Notes under the pieces: model-generated | What the model saw: only the letters and a program-made list of their open reading frames with translations | Told to the model about the DNA's origin: nothing | The model's database searches: none | Program-made: the position numbers and the translations under genes | Assembly (NCBI GenBank): GCA_963727845.1 | Contig: CAVSHI010000003.1 | Span: 787,764 to 851,763, forward strand | Direction: 5' to 3' | Origin: Ignavibacteriota bacterium | Lineage (GTDB): Bacteria > Bacteroidota > Ignavibacteria > UBA10030 > SZUA-254 | DNA: 64,000 nt | Part shown: piece by piece, positions 8,546 to 30,170 of the stretch | Numbering within the stretch: position 1 is the first letter of the stretch | Layout: each line of letters begins with the position of its first letter

Positions 8546-9469
8546 TCACAATTTTTTTCTGATGATGAACTGAAACCGCTCCGGAGTCCGGCGGATGACG
8601 CTGACTTCCGACGGCGCGGAAACAAGAGGTGTGATTATTCCGGTCGTGTCCTGAACCAGCGCCTCGTACGCTATACTCGCCTGGAAATCCGATGCGGAAA
8701 GTCGTGCGAGCTGGTCTATCCCACCGCGGACAATCAGATCAATTTTCGGGGGGATGAAGATCACTTCCCGGTTCGGGGGCAGCAAGGTCGCGGTGAGGGG
8801 AATTCCGGAAAATGTCTTCTCCGCGAACGGCTGCACATCGACCTGGAGATGCACCGTGGACGGGACCACGTTCAGCGAGAAATCGGTCGGCTCCTCAACC
8901 CCCAGCTCCTCATTGACGGGATTGTGCTGGTTATCGTATTTTCTGTAGACTGTTTGCCACCGTGAGATCGTCTCAATGAGATTGGCGGCTCCGCCGACAA
9001 GAACGCTGTCCGGGAAAATGTGCAACGGGCCGACCTGTCCGTACCCTTCCCGATAACTTAGAATGACCTGGGGGACCAGCGGCACGCGTTTTTCTTTGTA
9101 ATCCGCAAGCGCGAGCACGAGTGTCTCCGGCTTCACATCAACCGGTTGAACTGCCATCGGCAATTTCACATGCTCAAAAAAATCACGCTTTGTAACCATA
9201 TACTCTTCGATGCTCAAGGACAACATGTCGATGTAGTATCTGACATCGCTTGAAAAGTAGATGGCGGCAAGCTGCCAACCGCGCCCCTTAAAGCTGACGA
9301 CGATGGTCTTCGGAACAGCAAACTTAAGTGCCTTCCCTTCTTTTAAATTCTCCACCACCACCGGGACGTGCTTCACCAGCGTGTATTCCTCTGCCATGTT
9401 GATCGAGATCCAGACCAGGATGGCGAAAATTATCGAAGCGATGACGATATGGTAACGTTTTCTTTCCAT
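8546..9469 (-). CDS. YbbR-like domain-containing membrane-anchored protein (CdaR-like)
   Basis: N-terminal TM helix (HIVIASIIFAILVWISI), then repeated beta-rich modules with the spacing typical of YbbR repeats. The assignment is by architecture only. Confidence 0.5.
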   Translation of the reverse strand: MERKRYHIVIASIIFAILVWISINMAEEYTLVKHVPVVVENLKEGKALKFAVPKTIVVSFKGRGWQLAAIYFSSDVRYYIDMLSLSIEEYMVTKRDFFEHVKLPMAVQPVDVKPETLVLALADYKEKRVPLVPQVILSYREGYGQVGPLHIFPDSVLVGGAANLIETISRWQTVYRKYDNQHNPVNEELGVEEPTDFSLNVVPSTVHLQVDVQPFAEKTFSGIPLTATLLPPNREVIFIPPKIDLIVRGGIDQLARLSASDFQASIAYEALVQDTTGIITPLVSAPSEVSVIRRTPERFQFIIRKKL

Positions 9470-9561
9470 TCAGGATGGTAACAAAAAACTCCACTCATCT
9501 CGATGCTGTTCCGGCTGGCCGGAACAGCAAGACGAATGGAGTCATAAGCGACATACCCTTT

Positions 9562-10173
9562 CTATTCTGAAAATCGCGCCTTCAGAAGTTCCGCGATCAA
9601 CCCATCTCTGTTTGCCCGGGAAATTTCGCGGCCGACAATAGAGAGACCCTTCACTCCTCTCGCAAAACGACGCAGCGCGTGTACCGTCATTGCCTCAAGC
9701 TGGCGGCGATACTCCTGCGCATCGTCGCTCATCGCAATCTCCGGCGGCGGTTCGACCGGGGCGGAAATCTCCGGGAGTTTTTCCTCCTGATGACCTTCCG
9801 CGACAGCATGTTCGGCGACTTTTTCTTTCGGGGGTCTGCCGGATTTCCTTTTCACCGGCGGCGCCGTTTCTTTGGGCACACGTTCACTCGCTTTTTTCGC
9901 CGGGGGATAGATAAGAATCTCCGTTTCGTCATCGGGGCGTGGAATGACATGTGAAGAAACGAGCTCCCCGACACGTTGTGCGGCAGCAGCGCCGGCATCG
10001 ACGGCGGCGCGGACAGCGGCAACATCACCTCTGACCATCACGGTGATCAAGCCGGATCCGGCGCGCTCTTTGCCGATGAGCTCGACATCCGCAGCTTTGA
10101 CCATCGCATCGGCTGCCTCGATGGCGGCAACAAGCCCCCGCGTCTCAATTAACCCAAGTGCATACTCAAGCAT
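9562..10173 (-). CDS. bacterial microcompartment shell protein BMC-H (Pfam00936) with ~110-aa C-terminal extension (AT-hook-like linker + Rho_N/SAP-like domain)
   Basis: Residues 1-90 read [29 protein letters not shown]...[38 protein letters not shown], the canonical BMC-H fold. A P/K/E-rich linker follows with [11 protein letters not shown] (GRP AT-hook core), then [40 protein letters not shown], which resembles the Rho termination factor N-terminal helical domain. Confidence 0.8.
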
Positions 10174-10251
10174 GAAAATCTCACGATCGATTTAATCCCC
10201 TCGGCGGGTCGCAGGCAAAATCGCCGTGTCACCCGATCCCGGGGGTTGAAA

Positions 10252-10545
10252 TCAGTCTTTGGACCGCTTCGGAAGAATCATCTCAACGTCGCTGTGCGGG
10301 CGCGGGATGACGTGGACCGAGACCAGCTCTCCAACGCGTTGCGCGGCGGCAGCGCCGGCGTCTGTCGCGGCCTTGACGGCGCCAACGTCTCCGCGCACCA
10401 TCACGGTCACATACCCGCCGCCAATGACCTCCTTACCGATCAGCGTCACTTTTGCAGCCTTCACCATTGCATCGGCAGCTTCGATGGAACCGACCAGGCC
10501 CTTCGTCTCGACCATTCCAAGCGCATCAAGAGAAATATCTGCCAT
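10252..10545 (-). CDS. bacterial microcompartment shell protein BMC-H (PduA/EutM/CcmK-like)
   Basis: 97 aa; [76 protein letters not shown]. It is about 70% identical to the N-domain of the upstream paralog. Confidence 0.85.
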
Positions 10546-10882
10546 GTAGATTTACTCCTTTCAAAGAAAGATTATGGAAATTCTTTTCAAATAAACGTGA
10601 TTCGAATATACTGAAACGGGAGCATAATGTCAATCAACATTGGAAATTCCGGCGAAACCGGCCCATTTTCTCTTATTTTTTGTGCTCCCGAAAGGCCTGG
10701 GATTTTCTTCTTGACCGGTCTGGATCTGGACCTCCAAATCCTGCTGTAGATCCAGGGATTTAACCGGACTTGCCCGTCCGTCTGTCGTAATTTCATTCCT
10801 GGCGTTTCAGAGCCTTTAGGGCATGTTGGCATTGAGATTGATGGATGGTTTTACGATATTCCGAATAGAGTAAGAACGAGGA

Positions 10883-12220
10883 ATGAAACACGTACTGAGC
10901 ACAACAGTCCTACTGACCATCCTGCTTGGCATTTCGTGCCACAAGGATAATGGGCCCTGCCTTACCTGTCCGCCGCCATATACGCAGAGTATCCTTCTCG
11001 ATACCCTGAGCATTGAGCCGGCTGCCGTTGTTTTCCAGGTAAGCACGAGGGATTCGACGCACTTGGGTGTTGTTCAAATATATCGCGATAGCGTTTCAGT
11101 GTTCTCCAAAACGATTCTGAGCATTGACACGACGATAATTGACACGGCGCTTCTTCCAGCGCACCACTATCGGTACAAAGCATATCGAATCACGGGCAGC
11201 ACTCCAACTGACTCCAGCGCCGCGATCGTTCTCACTACGATGGACACTACAAGCCACAACTTCACGTGGGAGATTGATACACTGGGGGATGGCGCATCCA
11301 GTCATCTGTCGGATGTTGCTATTGTGAATGATACCTGCGTGTGGGTAGTGGGAGAAATTAACGTCCACGATTCTGTCGGTGGATGGAAGAATCCGCCGTA
11401 TAACATTGCCCGATGGGACGGTCATAGTTGGCAGCTATACACACTGAACTTTACTTATGATTATGGGACAGGGTACGCTCAAGCCGTGGCGGTGTATGCT
11501 TTCGGGCCGACAGACGTTCTCGTAAGTGCCGGTGCGAGCGTAATGCATTGGAATGGACAACACTGGACGAATCTTGATTACTTATACCATTCACAAGGTA
11601 ATATTCTGATCGGAAGCGTGTACAGGATGTGGGGGACATCAGTGAACGATTTGTACGGTGTTGGGTTGCAAGGGAGTATCGTGCACTGGGATGGTACGAG
11701 TTGGCAAACCATTGCAAGTGGCACGACACTTGATATACAAGATGTCTGGGGGTCCCGTAACCAGAAGACTGGTGAGTGGGAAATCCTGGCAGTGGCATCC
11801 GATAATGAGCTAAACGAGGGAAACAAAGTTCTAAAGATCAACAGCAATGGTGCTATGGCAATCCCGGATACTGGATTGCCCTGGAGTCTTACTGGAATCT
11901 GGTTTTCTTCAAGCCAGGCTTACTACATAGTCGGCGATGGTATCTTCTTTGAAAGATCCCTCAACCAACCATGGCGTTCTCTTCACCAAGGTCTAACAAC
12001 CTACTACACGGGTGCAGTTCAGGCTGCTAAGATAAATGATGTGGCCATTGTCGGGGCTTTTGGAGTTGTGTTGCATTATAATGGATCGACGTGGCGAAAT
12101 TATCAAAGCGAGACCGGCCTCACATCTGGATCCTGGACTGCTGTCAGGATAGAGGAGAATTTGCTGATTGCCGTTGGTGAAAATCTTGATAAAGCAGTAA
12201 TACTTATTGGCAGACGATAA
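10883..12220 (+). CDS. lipoprotein with beta-propeller-like W-x-G-x-x-W repeats
   Basis: Signal peptide plus lipobox (LLGISC). There are at least five repeats of the type ARWDGHSWQLY / MHWNGQHWTNL / VHWDGTSWQTI / LHYNGSTWRNY (BNR/Ycf48-like propeller blades). Confidence 0.6.
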   Translation: MKHVLSTTVLLTILLGISCHKDNGPCLTCPPPYTQSILLDTLSIEPAAVVFQVSTRDSTHLGVVQIYRDSVSVFSKTILSIDTTIIDTALLPAHHYRYKAYRITGSTPTDSSAAIVLTTMDTTSHNFTWEIDTLGDGASSHLSDVAIVNDTCVWVVGEINVHDSVGGWKNPPYNIARWDGHSWQLYTLNFTYDYGTGYAQAVAVYAFGPTDVLVSAGASVMHWNGQHWTNLDYLYHSQGNILIGSVYRMWGTSVNDLYGVGLQGSIVHWDGTSWQTIASGTTLDIQDVWGSRNQKTGEWEILAVASDNELNEGNKVLKINSNGAMAIPDTGLPWSLTGIWFSSSQAYYIVGDGIFFERSLNQPWRSLHQGLTTYYTGAVQAAKINDVAIVGAFGVVLHYNGSTWRNYQSETGLTSGSWTAVRIEENLLIAVGENLDKAVILIGRR

Positions 12221-22584: not shown

Positions 22585-23589
22585 CTAGATCATGTATTCA
22601 ATTATTTTTGTCTTTGGATCGAAAGGCTCAAGCTGACTGAGCCCGAGACGTTCAATCGCTGTATGAATTAGTTGTTCCTCACTCGTCGATGCGGCCGGGC
22701 TGCCGGCATAGAAGGTCCCTGCAAGCAACAGCGCTTCCTTGGGAATCAATCCCACCACCTCGCTTCCCGTCACATCGACCCCGAGGTTCTGCGCTTCCTT
22801 TCTCACTTCCTCATACGCACGGTGCGGCGGCGTAATGTCGTAATTCGTGAGATTGATGGAAACCTGGGCAATCTTGAAACGTTCGAGAAAAACTCCCATC
22901 GCTTTGACGGATTTCAAGGAACCGGGAATCTTTGTCGAATTTCCACTCGCATTCTTCACCGTTCTCCCGCTCTCACGGATCCGCACGGCGATTTCCTGGG
23001 CGATCTCCTTCTTGTCGGTTTTGAGATTGACATTGTAGGCAATCAGAAAACACCGCGCTCCAGTCACGGTTGCCCCGGATTTCTCGTTGAGAACGGGTTC
23101 TCCGTAGTCCGGCCGCCATGCAGAATCCTTGAGTTTATCCCGGAGTGCTTCATACTCGCCTTTTCTGACATTGGCAAGATTCCTTCTCTCGGGCATGCGC
23201 GCCGCTTCCTCGTAGAGATAAACGGGGATATGAAGCTCTTCGGCCACGCGCTTGCCGTATTCGTTGGAAAGCCGTACACAATCGGCCATAGTGACTCCGG
23301 AAACCGGCACGAACGGGACGACATCCGCTGCACCGATCCGCGGATGCTGGCCCTCGTGATGCCGCATATCGATCATATCTGCGGCAGTCTTTGTCGCCTG
23401 AAACGCGGCCTCTTTCACGGCCTCTGGCTCACCAACGAACGTCACGACACAACGGTTGTAATCCTTGTCCGGCTCAACGCCGAGGAGTTTCACCCCGCGC
23501 ACCCGACGGATGCTGTCGCCAATCGCTTTGATGGTGCGTTCATTCCGCCCCTCGCTAAAATTCGGGACACATTCCACAATTGGTTTCAT
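22585..23589 (-). CDS. ftcD: glutamate formimidoyltransferase
   Basis: MKPIVECVPNFSEGRN...RCVVTF..., the formiminotransferase N- and C-subdomains, is collinear with FtcD N-terminal-domain proteins. Confidence 0.85.
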   Translation of the reverse strand: MKPIVECVPNFSEGRNERTIKAIGDSIRRVRGVKLLGVEPDKDYNRCVVTFVGEPEAVKEAAFQATKTAADMIDMRHHEGQHPRIGAADVVPFVPVSGVTMADCVRLSNEYGKRVAEELHIPVYLYEEAARMPERRNLANVRKGEYEALRDKLKDSAWRPDYGEPVLNEKSGATVTGARCFLIAYNVNLKTDKKEIAQEIAVRIRESGRTVKNASGNSTKIPGSLKSVKAMGVFLERFKIAQVSINLTNYDITPPHRAYEEVRKEAQNLGVDVTGSEVVGLIPKEALLLAGTFYAGSPAASTSEEQLIHTAIERLGLSQLEPFDPKTKIIEYMI

Positions 23590-23593
23590 CTTC

Positions 23594-24226
23594 TCAAAAA
23601 GGCTTTCCCTTGTTATTCGATACAGGCACTACAATTGCGCCCTCTCTGAAATTGCCCAGCACTTCGGCTTTCCCCCGCAAGAACAAGTGTCCGACAAGAG
23701 CGCCCGTCACGGCATCAAGCTCGTCGCCGTTCATTTTCTTATCCAGACCTTTCGCTCCGAGCTTCCGCAGCCCTCTCAGGAGTTTTTCCAGCCCTTCCTG
23801 CTTCCTCGGAATTCCCCAGACATCCTGTGCCGCGCCCGGATACATTTCGATGACTTCATACCCTTTGCGCTTCAATTTCTTTTGCAGTGCAATGCCGCGC
23901 AGGGTCAGGGAGCGCATCGGACCGAGAGTAATCGGAAAGAACCGGATACCCCGCCTGAGCAATTCCCTGTCACATACGCGGAAATGCTGTCCGTTGCGGT
24001 CATCGATCGTTTTTCTTCCCGGCGGGAGATTCAGGGGCGCATCGATCGCCACGAGGTCCGGTTTCGCCTGCTCGACAAAATCGAAGATTTCATCGTCTGC
24101 GTAGACTGTGGTCCATGAAGTTATCGTTTTTCCTCTCAACGTACAAATCCCGGTGTTGCGCTTCGGACTCCCCGCAAGGTCTATACCGACGACAGTGAGA
24201 ATCCGGTTTTTCCTGTCAGAATTCAA
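23594..24226 (-). CDS. DUF429-like RNase H-fold protein
   Basis: ILTVVGIDLAGSPKRNTGICTL...DLVAIDAPLNLP matches the RNase H-like DUF429 pattern. Its start overlaps the hutI stop (ATGA), and it sits inside the hut cluster. Confidence 0.5.
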   Translation of the reverse strand: MNSDRKNRILTVVGIDLAGSPKRNTGICTLRGKTITSWTTVYADDEIFDFVEQAKPDLVAIDAPLNLPPGRKTIDDRNGQHFRVCDRELLRRGIRFFPITLGPMRSLTLRGIALQKKLKRKGYEVIEMYPGAAQDVWGIPRKQEGLEKLLRGLRKLGAKGLDKKMNGDELDAVTGALVGHLFLRGKAEVLGNFREGAIVVPVSNNKGKPF

Positions 24227-25461
24227 GAACGGTTCCTCGCTTGATTACCTGTTTCGGCGTGATTCTCCCCGAAATGATACGGGAGAAATTTATAGTCCGG
24301 GATGTTCAGGACCACCATGTCGGCCTTTTTCCCGACCTCGATGCTTCCCACTTCATCCGAAAGCCCGACGGCAGCGGCGGCATTGATGGTTGACGCGGTT
24401 ATTGCTTCCTCCGGAGTCATGCGCATTTGCGTGCAGGCGATTGTCATCATCAAAGGCATGCTGTACGACATACATGAACCCGGATTGAAATCGGTCGCGA
24501 TCGCGACGGGAACGCCGGCGTCAATCAGCGCTCGTGCTGGTGCATAGCGATGGTTGAGGAAAAATGAAACCCCCGGCAGCAGCGTCGCGACGACTCCCGC
24601 GCCGGCAATAGCTTGTATTTCACTGTCCGTTATGTGCTCGAGATGGTCGGCAGATATGGCGCCCAGTTTCGCAGCGAGTCCCGCTCCACCCGACGCGCTG
24701 AGCTCGTTCGCATGTATCTTCGGCATAAGGCCGAATTGTTTACCGTTCCGAAGAATTGTCTCGCTCTCCGCAACATCAAAATATCCGGCTTCGCAAAACA
24801 CATCACAGAAGGTCGCAAGCTTGTGAGAAGCAACGTAGGGGATCATACGTTCGTTGATCTCGCGCACATACTCCTTTTTGTTTGCCTCGAACTCCGGCGG
24901 GACGGCATGCGCGCCGAGAAATGTCGAGACAATCGAAATCACTTCTTCTTTTTCCAGCTCGACAATTGACTCAAGCATTTTGATCTCATTGTCCATGTCG
25001 AGCCCGTAGCCGCTTTTAATCTCCACCGTTGTAGTTCCGTGGTGCAGCATGTTGTTCAACCATTGCCGGGCTTGCTTCTTCAGCTCCTTCTTCGTCGCTT
25101 CACGCGTCTGCCGCACCGTATTCAGGATCCCGCCGCCCCGCTCTGCAATCTCCTGATACGTCATTCCTGCGCTTCGCATTGCAAACTCAGCCTCACGGCT
25201 GCCGCCGAATACCAGATGAGTGTGTGAGTCGACGAAACCGGGCATCACGACGTTGTTCATGCAATCAACCACGTCGGCTTCTTTGAGACTACCCAGCGCA
25301 AGATCTTCCATCCGGCCGACCCAGGTGATCGTGTCGCCCTCCACGATAACGGCGGCATTTTCGATCAAACCGACGTCGTTCATGTCATGACCGATCTTTA
25401 CTTTCTTGCCGTGCGCAGACACGGTGACAAGTTGCTGTATATCGAGAAGTGCAAGTTTCAT
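24223..25461 (-). CDS. hutI: imidazolonepropionase
   Basis: 412 aa; the amidohydrolase metal-binding blocks (GFVDSHTHLVFGG ... HANELSASGG ... DFNPGS) match HutI. Confidence 0.9.
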   Translation of the reverse strand: MKLALLDIQQLVTVSAHGKKVKIGHDMNDVGLIENAAVIVEGDTITWVGRMEDLALGSLKEADVVDCMNNVVMPGFVDSHTHLVFGGSREAEFAMRSAGMTYQEIAERGGGILNTVRQTREATKKELKKQARQWLNNMLHHGTTTVEIKSGYGLDMDNEIKMLESIVELEKEEVISIVSTFLGAHAVPPEFEANKKEYVREINERMIPYVASHKLATFCDVFCEAGYFDVAESETILRNGKQFGLMPKIHANELSASGGAGLAAKLGAISADHLEHITDSEIQAIAGAGVVATLLPGVSFFLNHRYAPARALIDAGVPVAIATDFNPGSCMSYSMPLMMTIACTQMRMTPEEAITASTINAAAAVGLSDEVGSIEVGKKADMVVLNIPDYKFLPYHFGENHAETGNQARNRS

Positions 25462-25591
25462 AATTCTATGATGTGCTTCATTCTGTGCAACGGTCTCAAA
25501 AGATACTCAAAAACATTCGTTCTTTCAAGGTGGACGGGGCTCCAAGTCGCGAAGCGAGCATCTCTAGCATACACCTGCATCGTTCAAGGGG

Positions 25592-25601
25592 GGGGGGCGT
25601 G
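25592..25601. repeat. G10 homopolymeric tract upstream of hutI
   Basis: caaGGGGGGGGGGcgtgg lies about 130 bp 5' of the hutI start, on the noncoding side. Confidence 0.6.
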
Positions 25602-25712
25602 GCGTCAAGAAAGCAACCATCAGAGGATTAAGTGGGAGGGGTGCACAGCGCCGGGGACAACAGCCGATCTTGCCCGCGCGTCACTTAACCGTATGCGCTG
25701 CAAACTGATGAA

Positions 25713-26168
25713 TCAAAGCGTTATTCGATAGAGATTCCATTCCTTCATATGCTTCGCCCCGAGCTTTTCATAGAAGCGGATGGCAGACGTATTCCAGCCG
25801 AGCACCGTCCATTCCATGCGACCGCACCGGCGCCGGCGCGCCACACCCCAATAATACTTGAACAACTTGATCCCGACCCCTTCCTTCCGGTATTCCCTCA
25901 AGACGAATATGTCTTCGAGATACAGGGTTGGCAAAGCAAGAAAAGATGAATACGTTTCGAAAAAAATTGCATAGCCGACTGCCTTCCGGTCGACAAAAGC
26001 GATCAACGCTTCAAAGCGCTTTCGTTTACCGAACGCGTCGCGGAGAAGTCGGCTGCGAGCCGAACGGGACGGTTTCTTCAATTTCTCGTAATCTGCCAGA
26101 GCATCGACGAGTTCCAGGAATTGCTTGCCGTCTTTCTTGCCGGCCGGTCGGACAATGATGGATTTCAT
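25713..26168 (-). CDS. GNAT family N-acetyltransferase
   Basis: The acetyl-CoA-binding motif REYRKEGVGIKLF and the MKSIIVRPA start; the longer upstream ORF extension was discarded. Confidence 0.75.
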   Translation of the reverse strand: MKSIIVRPAGKKDGKQFLELVDALADYEKLKKPSRSARSRLLRDAFGKRKRFEALIAFVDRKAVGYAIFFETYSSFLALPTLYLEDIFVLREYRKEGVGIKLFKYYWGVARRRRCGRMEWTVLGWNTSAIRFYEKLGAKHMKEWNLYRITL

Positions 26169-26169
26169 C

Positions 26170-26370
26170 TCAGTGTTCTTTCTCGACGTGGGAAAATCGT
26201 TGTGTGTAACCATTACATCGCACAACGGGCAGTGACGGGTACCTGGGGAACGACGGATCAGTTTTAGACATCAGGCAGAGCACGAATGTCGAACCTTTTT
26301 CATTCTGAATACATTTAGCGTACTTGCACTGTGTGCATAAGCCCGCACCATCAGGAATTTTTCGGTTCAT
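26170..26370 (-). CDS. small Cys-rich ORF (66 aa; C-x2-C-x4-C ... C ... C) immediately upstream of and coupled to the GNAT gene
   Basis: MNRKIPDGAGLCTQCKYAKCIQNEKGSTFVLC...VRC; the stop TGA is 1 nt before the GNAT ATG. No family could be assigned from memory. Confidence 0.3.
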   Translation of the reverse strand: MNRKIPDGAGLCTQCKYAKCIQNEKGSTFVLCLMSKTDPSFPRYPSLPVVRCNGYTQRFSHVEKEH

Positions 26371-26373
26371 GAA

Positions 26374-27516
26374 TCATTCGGCTGCGATGATGTTTCCGAT
26401 GGCGCGACTGAACCGTGGCAGGTTGCTATCCTCATCGGACAATTTCAAATATTTCCTGAAGAAATCAACTGGCCCCCGGACAATGGTTTCAACGAGTGCG
26501 GTTCTCCCCATCCTGAGGTCGATTTCTCTCGCCATGACCATGCCGGCCATTGCTCCGTAATTATCCCGGTATCCGCTCAGGTTGGCCGTTCGAATAAGTT
26601 CCGATGCCCGTGATGGGGAAAGGTTGTCAGAGAGCAGTTCCGTCGCATTCGCGTTGAACGTCGAAAAGACCTCCCTCGTTCTATTGTACCAGTCTCTGGG
26701 CAGGTTCCCATGTCCGAGTTGGTCGAGAGAAAGATAGTAGGCGATGCCTTCATTCTGCGTCAGATCGATTAACTCATGGAACGGCCTGTTGTGTGTCGCA
26801 TAGTAACGCTTCCACGCTGACGAATTTTCTTTGTAGGCACCGAAGGCAGCGTGAAACACCTCGTGCGCCGTTACGCCCAGAAGGGAAACGAAACGTTCAT
26901 TGAGCGTCTGGCCATAATTGACAGCGTGGGCAAGATTGATGACGATGGTCAACTCACCCTCCCCACCGCCGACAAATTGGGGCACATCTCCGTGCCAGAT
27001 GATCCGGCGGACATACGCATCGACGTTTTCGTGGCCGAACCCAACGACGTAGACCGGGATAGTCAAAGAAATATCCGCATCCTGCGGGAAGATCTGCTCG
27101 ACAGTAGCAACAACTCTGCGATTAAAGTTTTGCTTCTTCATTTCCCCGAGAAGCTCCTTGATGCTCACGATGTTCTTCCGCGCTTCTTCAAGATGATAGA
27201 TGTTGTCCCGCATGAAGTCGTGGTATCTCAGCGAATCGAGGGATGATTGGAGCCGCGCGGTTACGGAACCGCTGTTTGCGATTAATCCCGTTGTCGACGC
27301 GGCGACTAGGCTGCCGCGCAGGCCTGCCAATTCCTGTGTGCTCACGAAGCGATCTTCGTAGAGTTCGACACACTGTTCAGCGACATCAAAATTCAATCGC
27401 AAGTCGACATTGAACTTTGGGTTGGTTTGGGCCATAGCAATGGGCCCAACCATGTGCCCCAACAGAATAAGCAAAGCAAGCAGACAAAGAGCCAAATTCA
27501 TTGGGGGATAAATCAT
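26374..27516 (-). CDS. secreted putative zinc metalloprotease (HExxH)
   Basis: Signal peptide (MNLALCLLALLILLGHMVGPIAMAQ) and a single HEVFH motif (LGVTAHEVFHAAFGAY). The N-terminal about 55 codons of the maximal ORF are read through REP hairpins and are not coding. Confidence 0.6.
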   Translation of the reverse strand: MIYPPMNLALCLLALLILLGHMVGPIAMAQTNPKFNVDLRLNFDVAEQCVELYEDRFVSTQELAGLRGSLVAASTTGLIANSGSVTARLQSSLDSLRYHDFMRDNIYHLEEARKNIVSIKELLGEMKKQNFNRRVVATVEQIFPQDADISLTIPVYVVGFGHENVDAYVRRIIWHGDVPQFVGGGEGELTIVINLAHAVNYGQTLNERFVSLLGVTAHEVFHAAFGAYKENSSAWKRYYATHNRPFHELIDLTQNEGIAYYLSLDQLGHGNLPRDWYNRTREVFSTFNANATELLSDNLSPSRASELIRTANLSGYRDNYGAMAGMVMAREIDLRMGRTALVETIVRGPVDFFRKYLKLSDEDSNLPRFSRAIGNIIAAE

Positions 27517-27547
27517 TCTGCAAGTTGCCAGTGACATGAAGTCTGAG

Positions 27548-27700
27548 TCGTTTCCCTCAACTTTTAGCCTGTGAACAAACGCAGCGGCGTCTCTCGAATT
27601 GAAAACCGGATTGTGTCCCACGAGCTTTAGCTCGTGGACGAAGGCGACGCCATGTCTCGCACGGAATTTTGAATCGCACTTCACGAGTCACCTGTATCCT
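27548..27700. repeat. REP hairpin cluster 3' of the RAYT gene (1.5-2 degenerate units)
   Basis: Contains cccacgagctttagctcgtgg (9-bp stem) and ctctcgaattgaa..., homologous to the units at 28360-28486. Confidence 0.6.
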
Positions 27701-28344
27701 TCTTTTACATAGCTCCATTTCCACTCTTCGGGCGTACTCGTTATCCCTGCAACGACGGAATTGTACAACACGTAATCAATAATTCGTCTCAATTCCTGGC
27801 CGCAACGCACGACATGGTCGTAACTTTCATGGTGCCAGAAGCTTCCACTCCTGTCAAGCAACTGATTTGCCCGACGTGAGGTGCGTCCCTTCAGGAGTCG
27901 CAAGATGCGCGTCAACCTGAATCGATTGTTCTGGGTATTGCCCTGCGGTTCAGACGTTGGCTCAAACCCGCGCAGATCAATCACCATGTGGACATGATTT
28001 GGCATAATGGTATAAGCTATCAAACTATAGAGTTTATCATCCATGTCGTGCATCTCCTTTGCAACCAATCCCGCTACTGCAGGATCGTTCAACCAATGCG
28101 GACCGTTCTTAGCCTTCTCCAGGAACGCAGTATATCCATCAACGTACTTCTTCGGCAACTCTCCCCGACACCGACCATGCATCCCGTTTATGAGAACTCT
28201 TCTCTTCTCCACCGGATCGTCGACCAATGCCTTGAGGACATTCTTCGGTAACGATTCCGCTAATCGGAATGTGACGAAGAAAACTGCTTCAGCCGGCTGA
28301 TAGTGCGGCAAATGCCGCCGATAATATGTGTTGTCCTCCCCCAT
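27688..28344 (-). CDS. IS200-like / REP-associated tyrosine transposase (Y1 HUH transposase, RAYT-type)
   Basis: YYRRHLPHYQ...FFVTFR, the HUH motif in AYTIMPNHVHMVI, GRTSRRANQLL, and the catalytic Tyr in SFWHHESYDHVVR. Start set at the ATG (MGEDNTYY) just outside the REP array. Confidence 0.8.
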   Translation of the reverse strand: MGEDNTYYRRHLPHYQPAEAVFFVTFRLAESLPKNVLKALVDDPVEKRRVLINGMHGRCRGELPKKYVDGYTAFLEKAKNGPHWLNDPAVAGLVAKEMHDMDDKLYSLIAYTIMPNHVHMVIDLRGFEPTSEPQGNTQNNRFRLTRILRLLKGRTSRRANQLLDRSGSFWHHESYDHVVRCGQELRRIIDYVLYNSVVAGITSTPEEWKWSYVKEGYR

Positions 28345-28359
28345 ATCGCAACCCTGTGT

Positions 28360-28486
28360 CACGAGCTTCATCTCGTGAACATGGCCAATTGCATCCTCTC
28401 GAACTGAAGTTCGAGACACATCTCACGAGCTTCATCTCGTGAACATGGCCAATCGCAACCCCTCGAACTGAAGTTCGAGACACATC
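28360..28486. repeat. tandem REP units (2 x 62 bp) 5' of the RAYT gene
   Basis: Each unit is cacgagcttcatctcgtg (6-bp stem) + aacatggccaat + ctcgaactgaagttcgag (7-bp stem) + acacatc. The two copies differ at about 5 positions. Confidence 0.75.
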
Positions 28487-28493
28487 CTTCGAG

Positions 28494-30170
28494 CTAAGAT
28501 TCGGGATGCATCGGGATTTTCACCCCGAACTTCTTGGCGTTTTCAATCGCCCGATCGTAACCTGCATCTGCATGCCGCACAATACCCATTCCGGGGTCGT
28601 AGGTTAACACCCGCTCCAGCCGTCGTTCGGCCTCTTTAGTCCCGTCGGCAACAACCACCATACCCGCGTGAATCGACATCCCGATGCCGACACCACCGCC
28701 ATGGTGTACGCTTACCCAACTGGCGCCGCCAACAGCGTTGAGCAGCGCGTTCAGTATGGGCCAATCGGCAATGGCGTCGCTTCCATCCTTCATCTTTTCC
28801 GTCTCGCGGTTCGGCGATGCAACCGAACCACAGTCGAGATGGTCTCTTCCAATAACAATCGGGGCTTTAATCTCACCGCGGGCGACGAAGCTATTGAAGA
28901 TTTTTCCCATCTTCGCCCGTTCGCCGTAACCGAGCCAGCATATGCGCGAGGGCAGACCCTGGAACTTCACTTGCTTCTGCGCCTTCTCAATCCATCGGCA
29001 GAGGGGCTTGTTCTCCGGAAATGTTTCGAGAATAGCACGATCGGTTCTGTAGATGTCTTCCGGATCTCCGGAGAGCGCCGCCCAACGGAATGGACCTTTC
29101 CCGTCGCAGAACAGGGGACGAATGTATTCGGGCACGAAGCCTGGGATCTCGAACGCGTTTTCCACGCCGCTCGCGAGCGCTTCGCCCCTGATATTGTTGC
29201 CGTAATCGAACGTCACAGCGCCGCGTTTCTTCAATTCAAGCATGGCCCGCACATGTTCGACAATGGAAGCTCTCGCCATGGCAATGTATTTCTCCGGTTT
29301 CATTTTTCGAAGCGCAAGCGCTTCATCATACGGAATACCGTGCGGGACGTAGCCGTTGAGAGTATCATGAGCCGAGGTCTGGTCGGTAAGAACGTCCGGT
29401 GTGATTCCCCGACGAACAAGCTCCGGTAAGACGTTGGCTGCATTCCCGAGAAGAGCAACTGACACCGGTTCTTTCTTCAATTGTCCATCGTTAATCCATT
29501 GAAGCGCTTCATCGAGGCTCTTCGTTGTCTTATCGACATACTTTGTATCCAATCGCTTTTCAATTCTCAGGGGATCCACTTCAACCGCGAGGCACGCCGC
29601 GCCGTTCATTGTGGCCGCGAGCGGCTGTGCGCCACCCATGCCTCCGAGGCCGGAAGTGAGTAAGAATCTTCCGGCGAGCGAACCATGGAAGTACTTTTCA
29701 CCCGCAGCCGCGAATGTCTCGTATGTTCCCTGCAAAATCCCCTGCGTGCCGATGTAGATCCAACTGCCCGCTGTCATCTGTCCGTACATCGTAAGGCCCA
29801 GCGCTTCGAGCCGCCGAAATTCATCCCATGTTGCCCAGTGGGGAACCAGCATTGCATTGGAGATGAGCACGCGCGGCGCATCGGGGTACGTCTTGAAAAC
29901 GCCCACGGGCTTTCCGGATTGGACGAGAAGAGTTTCATCGTTCCCAAGAGTTTTGAGAGTTCGGACGATGGCCTCGTAGCATTCCCAGTTGCGCGCTGCT
30001 TTTCCCGTGCCGCCGTATACTATAAGTTCATCCGGCTTTTCTGCGACTTCAGCATCAAGATTGTTCATCAACATCCGCATCGCCGCTTCCTGCAGCCAGC
30101 CTTTGCAACTGAGTTGGGTACCGTGTGGGGCTTTGATATTAGTGTGGTGGTCTGTCATTGTTTCTCCCAA
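28494..30170 (-). CDS. hutU: urocanate hydratase
   Basis: [45 protein letters not shown]...[12 protein letters not shown] matches the HutU N-terminus and NAD-binding region. Confidence 0.9.

What the first reader, a model, noticed from the sequence alone, without database searches (positions are those of the whole stretch)
9562..10545. Orphan pair of BMC-H shell-protein genes, one with an AT-hook + Rho_N/SAP-like putative nucleic-acid-binding tail
Two adjacent Pfam00936 shell-protein genes are present. None of the usual BMC partners lies within 20 kb on either side: no BMC-P vertex protein, no aldehyde dehydrogenase, no PduL/PTAC, no encapsulation-peptide enzymes. The closest catabolic partners are ptb-buk-nfnAB about 44 kb away. 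The larger paralog (203 aa) appends a Pro/Lys/Glu-rich linker containing [11 protein letters not shown] (AT-hook-like GRP core) and a C-terminal domain matching the Rho_N helical fold ([37 protein letters not shown]). The only shell protein I know with a comparable arrangement is EutK (BMC-H plus helix-turn-helix). A different DNA/RNA-binding module on a shell hexamer, in a satellite locus, suggests either a nucleic-acid-associated compartment or tethering or regulatory function, or a non-canonical use of BMC hexamers.
Basis: partly seen in the sequence, partly recalled or inferred. Interest (0 to 1): 0.75.

Follow-up and report, generated by a model that had tools for sequence, protein, structure and literature searches.

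The report
Shell-protein pair of a scattered microcompartment
These two genes encode the hexamer tiles of a bacterial microcompartment type (FRAG1) already catalogued in Ignavibacteria. One tile carries a flexible tail ending in a small, probably nucleic-acid-binding domain, so the case is a known oddity and not a new system.

Summary
Window 10252-10545(-) encodes a canonical 97-aa BMC-H. Window 9562-10173(-) encodes a 203-aa BMC-H followed by a ~60-aa disordered Pro/Lys/Glu linker and a ~55-aa folded domain. No other BMC gene lies in the 64 kb.

It is not an unexplained orphan. Sutter et al. 2021 (Supplementary Data 2) describe the FRAG1 type, found mostly in Ignavibacteria.

What I add:
- It shows no detectable similarity to the C-terminal domain of EutK.
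- The AT-hook-like GRP motif is clade-specific (37 of 118).
- The same tail sits on BMC-H proteins in 444 species-level genomes, including a full EUT-type locus in Carboxydothermus.
- The pair is a discrete unit with a conserved promoter and terminator.

Most likely role: the tails project into the cytosol and tether or position the compartment on nucleic acid, as reported for EutK. This is inferred, not shown.

The parts
10605..10633 (-). Promoter-like site TTGACA-17-TATATT upstream of the 97-aa BMC-H gene
   Evidence: Matches 11 of 12 consensus positions. Hexamers and spacer are conserved in at least 70% of 80 related loci, and a GAAAGGAG Shine-Dalgarno follows. This is a consensus match; function is not shown.
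10252..10545 (-). Canonical BMC-H shell protein, 97 aa (the 'standard' FRAG1 hexamer tile)
   Evidence: Pfam BMC 100 bits. NCBIfam EutM model 137 bits, above its 133 cut-off. It is 100% identical to the L001 ortholog and 85% identical to a Carboxydothermus BMC-H.
9562..10173 (-). BMC-H paralog with C-terminal extension, 203 aa (whole gene)
   Evidence: Pfam BMC 108 bits over residues 5-80. More than 118 full-length homologs at 53-84% identity come from Ignavibacteria-like MAGs. The AF2 full-length model shows two ordered domains joined by a low-confidence linker.
9934..10161 (-). BMC domain of the 203-aa protein (residues 5-80)
   Evidence: pLDDT 81-97 for residues 1-80. The match to the Pfam model is non-permuted. 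The interface motifs read KAAD and PRPD, where Sutter et al. give KAAN and (P/A)RPH for basal BMC-H (read from the sequence).
9736..9918 (-). Disordered Pro/Lys/Glu-rich linker (residues 86-146)
   Evidence: pLDDT 43-66. Length is 41-74 aa in close homologs and 12-333 aa in the wider family. A basic cluster of at least 4 K/R in 10 aa occurs in 108 of 118 close homologs.
9820..9852 (-). AT-hook-like motif [11 protein letters not shown] (residues 108-118)
   Evidence: The GRP core is present in 37 of 118 close homologs and RGRP in 27 of 118. Composition-preserving shuffles give means of 3.1 and 0.2, but the sequences are related. About 1 of 102 wider-family linkers have it. No Pfam AT_hook hit at E<=10.
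9565..9735 (-). C-terminal helix-extended-helix (Rho_N/SAP-like) domain (residues 147-203)
9482..9543 (-). Intrinsic-terminator-like hairpin plus U6, directly after the 203-aa gene
   Evidence: MFE -47.5 kcal/mol, z -7.6. A hairpin with a run of at least 5 U occupies the same position in 47 of 50 related loci.
8546..9469 (-). Downstream neighbour: 307-aa YbbR-domain protein with an N-terminal membrane anchor. Conserved neighbour; membership of the system is uncertain.
   Evidence: Homologs carry precomputed PF07949 hits and are named 'YbbR domain-containing protein' by JGI. It lies directly downstream in 50 of the 87 related loci then held (L001-L087) and in the window, and in L089. Of these, L006, L007 and L089 are only 27-28% identical to the window's copy, and their flanking genes differ. 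It is absent there in I. album-like loci and is separated from the pair by the terminator.

Best explanation
The region is a self-contained two-gene unit: promoter, 97-aa BMC-H, 203-aa BMC-H, terminator. It encodes the two hexameric shell proteins of the FRAG1 (fragmented-locus) bacterial microcompartment of Ignavibacteria. In this type the remaining shell genes (a BMC-P triplet, often a PduS/PduT pair) lie elsewhere in the genome, and the cargo is unknown.

The 97-aa protein is the bulk facet tile. The 203-aa paralog most likely co-assembles into the same facets as a minority hexamer. BMC-H termini emerge on the concave face, and that face points to the cytosol. Each such hexamer would therefore display six flexible ~60-residue tethers, each ending in a basic helix-extended-helix (Rho_N/SAP-like) domain. 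In this clade the tether also carries an AT-hook-like basic patch.

These tails would bind a nucleic acid, either nucleoid DNA or RNA. That would anchor or distribute the compartments in the cell, which is the role recently shown genetically for EutK in Salmonella.

Shown here: gene structure, domains, fold, conservation, dispersal of the locus, and recurrence of the tail in other BMC contexts.
Inferred: co-assembly, outward orientation, nucleic-acid binding, and a positioning role.
For: Identity of the pair:
- Pfam BMC hits for both proteins.
- More than 118 full-length homologs in Ignavibacteria-like MAGs.
- 444 species-level genomes encode the tail.
- The FRAG1 description matches point by point.
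- A PduS/PduT pair lies about 5 kb from the same BMC-H pair in L026 and L090.
- MAG RIFCSPLOWO2_12_FULL_56_21 carries the fusion (L079), and Sutter's BMC-P tree lists a FRAG1 BMC-P from that MAG.

The tail:
- AF2 gives pLDDT 90.9 for the domain and 43-66 for the linker.
- Pfam Rho_N hits 52 of 55 family tails.
- The domain core carries a mean net charge of +4.2.
- Of the top 150 cluster representatives found with the tail profile, 102 are BMC-H fusions, so the domain subfamily is nearly BMC-specific.
- It also occurs in a complete EUT-type locus in Carboxydothermus ferrireducens. The role is therefore general to BMCs and not tied to one pathway.

Precedents:
- An isolated 40-aa C-terminal Rho-N motif binds RNA in gel shifts (RHON1, PMC3458557).
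- In a Salmonella ΔeutK mutant the Eut BMCs collect at the poles and become static. The authors propose nucleotide binding by the basic tail of EutK (PMC12487888).
- The concave face is cytosol-facing (PMC10902431).

The transcription unit:
- Conserved near-consensus promoter.
- Conserved terminator.
Against: - No binding data exist for this domain. HeH/LEM-type domains can also bind proteins.
- The window protein itself scores below Pfam's Rho_N threshold (16.5 bits against 24.9).
- Foldseek against the PDB gives no significant hit.
- The AT-hook-like motif is absent from most of the wider family, whose linkers are net acidic. DNA binding by the linker is therefore not general.
- The rest of this genome could not be read, so a BMC-P triplet in this organism is assumed from the literature and from a related MAG.
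- Orientation and co-assembly are extrapolated from other shells.
Confidence: 0.5

Rival explanations
1. The HeH domain is a protein-protein adaptor and not a nucleic-acid binder. It would recruit cargo, a partner enzyme or another shell component, replacing the encapsulation peptides that FRAG1 genomes appear to lack.
Against: The C-terminus of a non-permuted BMC-H lies on the cytosol-facing concave side (and established shell structures), so luminal cargo recruitment is topologically awkward. The domain is strongly basic. In Carboxydothermus the same tail sits in a locus whose enzymes (AldDH, PTAC, EutBC) are of the kinds that normally use encapsulation peptides.
Confidence: 0.2
2. The pair is not part of a closed compartment. 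The two BMC-H proteins would form sheets, tubes or a scaffold on the nucleoid or membrane, expressed constitutively. This is a non-canonical use of hexamers.
For: No BMC-P gene was found in the window (Pfam on the larger ORFs, collinearity with L001, and probe searches), nor within ±10 kb of the pair in the 87 related loci L001-L087. The context is housekeeping. The promoter is conserved and near-consensus, and no regulator is adjacent. A YbbR membrane protein is a conserved neighbour.
Against: FRAG1 genomes carry BMC-P triplets, by definition of the type. One MAG carrying this fusion is listed with a FRAG1 BMC-P. A PduS/PduT pair is linked in some relatives. The same tail occurs in a full EUT-type locus that includes EutN.
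Confidence: 0.1
3. The tailed BMC-H is a transcriptional regulator or autoregulator. Free hexamers would bind specific DNA and report shell-protein supply.
For: The tail has a DNA-binding-type fold. The promoter spacer upstream of the pair is unusually conserved and could be an operator.
Against: SAP/HeH/Rho_N domains are generally non-specific or structure-specific binders. Linker length varies from 12 to 333 aa, which suits a tether better than a defined operator complex. No repeated operator-like motif was identified.
Confidence: 0.05
4. The tail is only a disordered linker without a domain.
For: The window protein alone gives only a sub-threshold Rho_N hit (E 0.063 in the 114-aa construct).
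Against: Eight positions are invariant and about 13 more nearly invariant across 118 homologs. AF2 gives pLDDT 91. The domain is conserved down to about 45% identity in lineages whose BMC domain has diverged to 35%.
Confidence: 0.01

Closest known systems
FRAG1 fragmented BMC locus type (Sutter et al. 2021, Nat Commun 12:3809, Supplementary Data 2)
   Same: Same taxon (Ignavibacteria and relatives). Shell genes are scattered with no adjacent enzymes. [quoted passage not shown] A PduS/PduT pair is present in some genomes (matched).
   Different: Nothing contradicts membership. The catalogue does not name the fold of the ordered domain, its spread to other locus types, the promoter/terminator unit or the YbbR neighbour. 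The BMC-P triplet could not be checked in this genome.
EutK (Salmonella/E. coli EUT1 shell protein: BMC-H plus a C-terminal basic domain, PDB 3I71)
   Same: The architecture is BMC-H plus a linker plus a small basic C-terminal domain on a minor shell hexamer. EutK is required for spatial distribution of Eut BMCs and is proposed to bind nucleotides (PMC12487888).
PduK (Pdu shell BMC-H with a C-terminal extension)
   Same: A minor BMC-H with a long C-terminal extension, reported to influence the subcellular location of the compartments (cited in PMC12487888).
   Different: The PduK extension is described there as disordered. By my own recollection it also carries an Fe-S motif; that is not from the paper and was not tested here. 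Here the extension ends in a folded HeH domain with no cysteines.
Rho_N / SAP / LEM helix-extended-helix domains (e.g. the Rho N-terminus, DEK and FAN1 SAP domains, the plant RHON1 C-terminal Rho-N motif)
   Same: Same fold and sequence pattern. As in RHON1, the motif sits at the extreme C-terminus after a charged region. In RHON1 the motif alone binds RNA.
   Different: Fused to a BMC shell domain, a combination not described in any paper I could find. The GR-x-IS-R-AN signature defines a subfamily almost confined to BMC-H proteins.
McdAB carboxysome positioning system
   Same: The proposed outcome is the same: a protein organelle distributed using the nucleoid as a matrix (papers listed).
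   Different: McdAB uses a ParA-type ATPase and an adaptor. Here the shell protein itself would carry the nucleic-acid-binding module, and no ParA-like gene is linked.

Membership tests
BMC-H (Pfam PF00936 single-domain shell hexamer) | One non-permuted PF00936 domain scoring above the gathering threshold | tested here: met
   100.4 and 107.8 bits against a cut-off of 24.5. Model positions 1-75 are matched in order.
FRAG1 BMC type (Sutter et al. 2021) | [quoted passage not shown] | tested here: met
   description.
FRAG1 BMC type (Sutter et al. 2021) | Shell genes dispersed, with no identifiable BMC enzymes next to them | tested here: met
   Only two BMC ORFs in 64 kb. Neighbours are housekeeping or hut genes.
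FRAG1 BMC type (Sutter et al. 2021) | Occurs in Ignavibacteria and related FCB lineages | tested here: met
   Source names of homologs and of 80 genome loci are Ignavibacteria, Ignavibacteriales, Bacteroidota or 'Chlorobiaceae' MAGs.
FRAG1 BMC type (Sutter et al. 2021) | BMC-P triplet (green/grey/orange clades) elsewhere in the same genome | not testable with these tools
   The rest of the 1.29-Mb source contig could not be read. Indirect support: MAG RIFCSPLOWO2_12_FULL_56_21 has the fusion (L079) and a FRAG1 BMC-P in Sutter's tree. No BMC-P within ±10 kb of the pair in the 87 related loci L001-L087.
FRAG1 BMC type (Sutter et al. 2021) | PduS/PduT homolog pair (present in 24 of 57 catalogued loci, so optional) | tested here: inconclusive
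   Absent from the window. Present about 5 kb from the pair in relatives L026 and L090. No PduS among the best 120 hits lies on a contig of the window's length.
EutK (NCBIfam NF012010) | Full-length match above the curated cut-off, including the C-terminal domain | tested here: not met
   98.4 bits against 218, covering only residues 4-109 and model positions 3-108 of 166. The tail profile does not find 3I71. The hhalign test was uninformative because the Rho control also failed.
Rho_N (Pfam PF07498) | Sequence match above the gathering threshold (24.9 bits) | tested here: inconclusive
   The window tail scores 16.5 bits, E 0.0084, below threshold. At family level, 52 of 55 tails match at E<=1, best 1.3e-6, and homolog P0117 carries a precomputed PF07498 hit.
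Helix-extended-helix fold (Rho_N/SAP/LEM) | Two helices joined by an extended Gly-containing loop, superposable on solved HeH domains | tested here: met
AT-hook (Pfam PF02178 / SMART AT_hook) | R-G-R-P core flanked by basic residues, detectable by the HMM | tested here: not met
   No Pfam hit at E<=10. The window has S-G-R-P, not R-G-R-P. RGRP occurs in 27 of 118 close homologs and 1 of 102 wider ones.

The most novel reading that the evidence does not exclude
The HeH-tailed BMC-H is a general, ParA-independent tether, independent of pathway, that couples protein organelles to the nucleoid or to RNA. It is present in at least 444 species and in at least three locus contexts: FRAG1, a Tmk-flanked trio with a YbbR gene (preceded by RuvX in L007 and L089), and a full EUT-type locus in a Firmicute. 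In Ignavibacteria it would belong to a constitutively expressed, housekeeping-embedded organelle and not to a substrate-induced metabolosome. That organelle is possibly linked to purine catabolism, because the PduS/PduT pair sits in xdh/ygeW-X-Y-like clusters in two genomes.
Probability: 0.25. Interest if true: 0.6.

Novelty: new member of a known kind. Interest (0 to 1): 0.35.

Why it matters
FRAG-type compartments are among the least understood bacterial organelles. Their cargo and function are unknown and their genes are scattered. Naming the fold of the tail gives a concrete hypothesis that can be tested at the bench. So does the finding that the same tail recurs on shell proteins of unrelated compartment types. 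The hypothesis is that the shell protein itself tethers the organelle to nucleic acid, in parallel with the newly reported positioning role of EutK. For the scan itself, the main value is negative: this apparent orphan is explained by an existing catalogue entry.

Tried and rejected
- The exact 203-aa protein is not on record in the contig index. The source contig could not be extended, so BMC-P in this genome could not be tested.
Nothing was found. Sensitivity for divergent BMC-P is limited.
- A PduS search was used as a contig-length fingerprint. None of the best 120 hits is on a 1,291,877-bp contig. One hit's longest contig (74,890 bp) matches that of fusion homolog P0118, and the copy actually read (L090, a 54.6-kb contig) carries the BMC-H pair about 4 kb from PduS.
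- The tail profile against PDB sequences gave no hit at E<=10.
- hhalign of the tail profile against the EutK C-terminus was negative. The same test against E. coli Rho residues 1-53 was also negative, so this test is uninformative and I do not use it.
- Foldseek against the PDB gave no significant hit. The afdb50 library was unavailable.
- Rfam on 9400-10950 found nothing meaningful, so there is no riboswitch clue to a substrate.
- The taxonomy of the AT-rich lineages L006, L007 and L089 could not be obtained.
- Co-transcription with the YbbR gene was considered and downgraded, because a conserved terminator separates the genes.
- No paper in the library links BMC shell proteins to SAP/Rho_N/HeH domains, and none follows up FRAG1.

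Full report
OBSERVATION

- The 97-aa product of 10252-10545 hits Pfam BMC (PF00936) at E 5.5e-29.
- The 203-aa product of 9562-10173 hits it at E 2.6e-31, over residues 5-80.
- The 97-aa protein also passes the NCBIfam EutM cut-off (137 bits against 133). The 203-aa protein passes no equivalog model; EutK scores 98 bits against 218, over the BMC part only.
- A phmmer scan of all six frames finds no third BMC-domain ORF in the 64 kb.

The surroundings contain no BMC partner.
- Window 49-21776 is collinear, at 67-100% protein identity, with a related metagenomic contig (L001). Its genes are an RND transporter, ApaG, FBPase, ETF alpha and beta, a UVR-domain nuclease, TruA, PdxJ, AsmA, KsgA, a P-type ATPase, PAP2 and a citrate transporter.
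- Window 21.9-33 kb holds histidine-utilisation genes, a GNAT, a DUF5700 peptidase and an M14 peptidase.

WHAT IT IS

The 203-aa protein belongs to a large family. More than 118 full-length homologs of about 200 aa, at 53-84% identity, come from MAGs labelled Ignavibacteria, Ignavibacteriales or Bacteroidota.

The published catalogue of bacterial microcompartments defines a type called FRAG1, with 57 loci (Sutter et al. 2021, PMC8217296). The supplement's BMC-H tree lists a 229-aa FRAG1 BMC-H from an Ignavibacteria MAG.

I could not read the rest of this genome. Three observations tie the family to the other FRAG1 parts.
- In relatives L026 and L090, a PduS (RnfC-like Fe-S flavoprotein) and PduT (tandem-BMC) pair lies about 5 kb from the same BMC-H pair. 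It sits between the pair and AsmA, exactly where the window has a 445-aa lipoprotein gene.
- MAG RIFCSPLOWO2_12_FULL_56_21 carries the fusion (L079) and is listed with a FRAG1 BMC-P in Sutter's BMC-P tree.
- No BMC-P lies within ±10 kb of the pair in any of the 87 related loci L001-L087, as expected for a fragmented type.

THE TAIL

Alignment of 118 homologs shows three parts.
- A conserved BMC domain.
- A variable linker of 41-74 aa, with about 12 Pro, 9 Lys/Arg and 9 Asp/Glu on average.
- A strongly conserved C-terminal block. V164, R168, A171, R172, G181, R182, I184 and S185 are invariant, and about 13 more positions are at least 90% conserved. The consensus is MSDDExTYRxQLExMTVHELRRYARSVxGLxIFGRQISRANRDxLIxELMKxKFPK.

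AlphaFold2 on the full alignment gives pLDDT 81-97 for residues 1-80, 43-66 for residues 91-140, and above 90 for residues 150-200. The tail alone gives pLDDT 90.9 with four helices.

Pfam Rho_N (PF07498) matches 52 of 55 family tails at E<=1, with a best E of 1.3e-6. The window's own tail scores 16.5 bits (E 0.0084), below the gathering score of 24.9. One homolog carries a precomputed PF07498 hit.

- FAN1 SAP, YqbF, emerin LEM, PIAS1 SAP and Hcc-1 SAP.

The 40-residue core carries a mean net charge of +4.2.

THE AT-HOOK

The window has S-G-R-P within [11 protein letters not shown].
- GRP occurs in 37 of 118 close homologs and the canonical RGRP in 27 of 118.
- Composition-preserving shuffles give means of 3.1 and 0.2. 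The sequences are related, so this is not a probability.
- Among 102 more distant fusions the motif is essentially absent, and the linkers are net acidic.
- No AT_hook HMM hit was obtained.

The motif is a clade-specific embellishment. The HeH domain is the constant feature.

BREADTH

An exhaustive profile search with the tail finds 563 cluster representatives at E<=1e-3. Of the best 150:
- 102 are BMC-H fusions, with linkers of 12-333 aa.
- Most of the rest are fragments, short stand-alone copies, or proteins with a degenerate BMC-like N-terminus.

A scan of one genome per species finds 444 genomes encoding a relative. The best 80 are all Ignavibacteria-like MAGs.

One fusion (P0136, WP_034541818.1) is from the cultured Firmicute Carboxydothermus ferrireducens. 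There it sits inside a complete EUT-type locus: EutA/B/C, an EutL-like BMC-T, EutT, EutN, PduS/PduT, EutQ, a BMC-H, the fusion itself, then aldehyde dehydrogenase and PTAC.

The tail is therefore a recurrent appendage of shell hexamers across compartment types. This argues for a function general to compartments, not for a special nucleic-acid-metabolising compartment.

TRANSCRIPTION UNIT AND NEIGHBOURS

Upstream of the 97-aa gene is TTGACA-17-TATATT, matching 11 of 12 consensus positions. Its hexamers and spacer are conserved in at least 70% of 80 loci, and a GAAAGGAG ribosome-binding site follows.

Directly after the 203-aa gene is a long hairpin followed by U6, with MFE -47.5 kcal/mol and z -7.6. 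An equivalent hairpin with a U-run is present in 47 of 50 relatives.

The pair thus looks like a strongly expressed bicistronic unit with no adjacent regulator. This is unlike substrate-induced metabolosome operons. These are consensus and energy predictions only.

The next gene downstream (8546-9469) encodes a 307-aa YbbR-domain protein with an N-terminal membrane anchor.
- It follows the pair in 50 of the 87 related loci then held (L001-L087) and in the window itself.
- It also follows the pair in three AT-rich lineages (L006, L007, L089). There it is only 27-28% identical and the flanking genes are RuvX and Tmk instead of AsmA and PdxJ.
- It is absent at this position in Ignavibacterium album-like loci.

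The linkage is old, but its meaning is unknown. The bulk of the protein is predicted, from the positive-inside rule, to lie outside the cytoplasm.

MECHANISM

The shown facts are given above. The inference runs in four steps.
1. Both proteins retain the hexamer-forming BMC fold, so the tailed paralog probably co-tiles with the 97-aa protein.
2. BMC-H termini lie on the concave face (established structural knowledge). That face points to the cytosol in solved shells (PMC10902431). The tails should therefore project outward, six per hexamer.
3. A basic HeH domain on a flexible tether is best suited to bind a polyanion. An isolated 40-aa C-terminal Rho-N motif binds RNA in vitro (RHON1, PMC3458557), and SAP domains bind DNA.
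4. The functional precedent is EutK. Its deletion leaves Eut compartments clustered and static at the poles, and the authors propose nucleotide binding by its basic C-terminal domain. They note a similar positioning role for PduK (PMC12487888).

I therefore favour tethering or positioning on nucleic acid, at a confidence of about 0.5 for the whole chain. DNA versus RNA is unresolved.

The rivals are a protein-protein adaptor (0.2), a non-shell scaffold (0.1), a regulator (0.05), and "no domain at all", which is refuted.

VERDICT

The locus is a new member of a catalogued kind, FRAG1.

The increments here are modest but usable for experiments:
- the fold assignment;
- the lack of detectable similarity to EutK's C-terminal domain;
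- the clade-limited AT-hook;
- the recurrence of the tail across locus types;
- the promoter/terminator unit.

Noticed in passing
window 8546-9469 (-); also L006 1237-2151, L007 10805-11719, L089 11004-11915: A ~305-aa membrane-anchored YbbR-domain protein follows the BMC-H pair in 50 of the 87 related loci then held (L001-L087), in the window and in L089. In L006, L007 and L089 it is only 27-28% identical and the other flanking genes differ (Tmk downstream instead of PdxJ, RuvX upstream where readable). No diadenylate cyclase gene is adjacent. The reason for the linkage is unknown.
   Followed up: partly
L088 (Carboxydothermus ferrireducens ATYG01000016.1), gene at 10001-10552: A 183-aa BMC-H with the same HeH tail sits inside a complete EUT-type locus (EutABC, EutL-like, EutT, EutN, PduS/T, EutQ, AldDH, PTAC) in a cultured Firmicute. 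This organism could serve for experiments.
   Followed up: partly
L091 1-19413 and L094 3065-19954: In two genomes the FRAG1-like PduS/PduT pair is embedded in a cluster of xanthine-dehydrogenase-family genes. The cluster includes a PALP enzyme, an M20 peptidase, OTCase-like genes and an amidohydrolase, plus carbamate kinase (L091) or XdhC and molybdopterin genes (L094). It resembles the ygeW-X-Y/ssnA anaerobic purine-catabolism cluster and may hint at FRAG1 cargo. It was not shown that these genomes carry the tailed BMC-H.
   Followed up: no
window 10575-10640 (-) and the same region in 80 loci: The 17-nt spacer and the bases just downstream of the promoter-like site (…ATATGCTCCCxTTTCAGTATATTCGATTCACG…) are conserved far beyond the two hexamers. 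This may be an operator or an unusually constrained promoter.
   Followed up: partly
window 10883-12220 (+): A 445-aa predicted lipoprotein with no Pfam family lies between the BMC-H pair and AsmA. It is absent at this position from L001, L003 and L005. In L026 and L090 the same slot holds aminotransferase, PEP carboxykinase, PduS and PduT.
   Followed up: partly
P0142, P0146, P0151, P0159, P0152, P0178, P0214: Long-linker variants of the fusion (250-460 aa) carry a second short conserved motif in the linker (TIxRLRREALG, in 19 of 102 linkers) and very acidic or Lys-rich low-complexity stretches. P0144, P0155 and P0168 have a degenerate BMC-like N-terminal domain and extra residues after the HeH domain.
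   Followed up: no
window 22585-30170 (-): This is a histidine-utilisation cluster: formiminotransferase, a DUF429 protein, an imidazolonepropionase-like amidohydrolase and urocanase. It is interrupted by a GNAT, a DUF5700 peptidase and a 243-aa ORF with a weak IS200-like Y1 transposase hit.
   Followed up: no
P0024 and P0113: These 289-290-aa proteins appear to contain three BMC domains in tandem. They scored among the top hits to the 203-aa query. Their origin is unknown.
   Followed up: no
window 9562-10173 compared with its neighbours: Against the closest relative, the tailed BMC-H is the fastest-evolving complete gene of the block (78% identity, against 81-96% for the other complete genes; only the truncated ACR_tran match is lower, 67%). 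The adjacent 97-aa BMC-H is 100% identical. The divergence is concentrated in the linker.
   Followed up: partly
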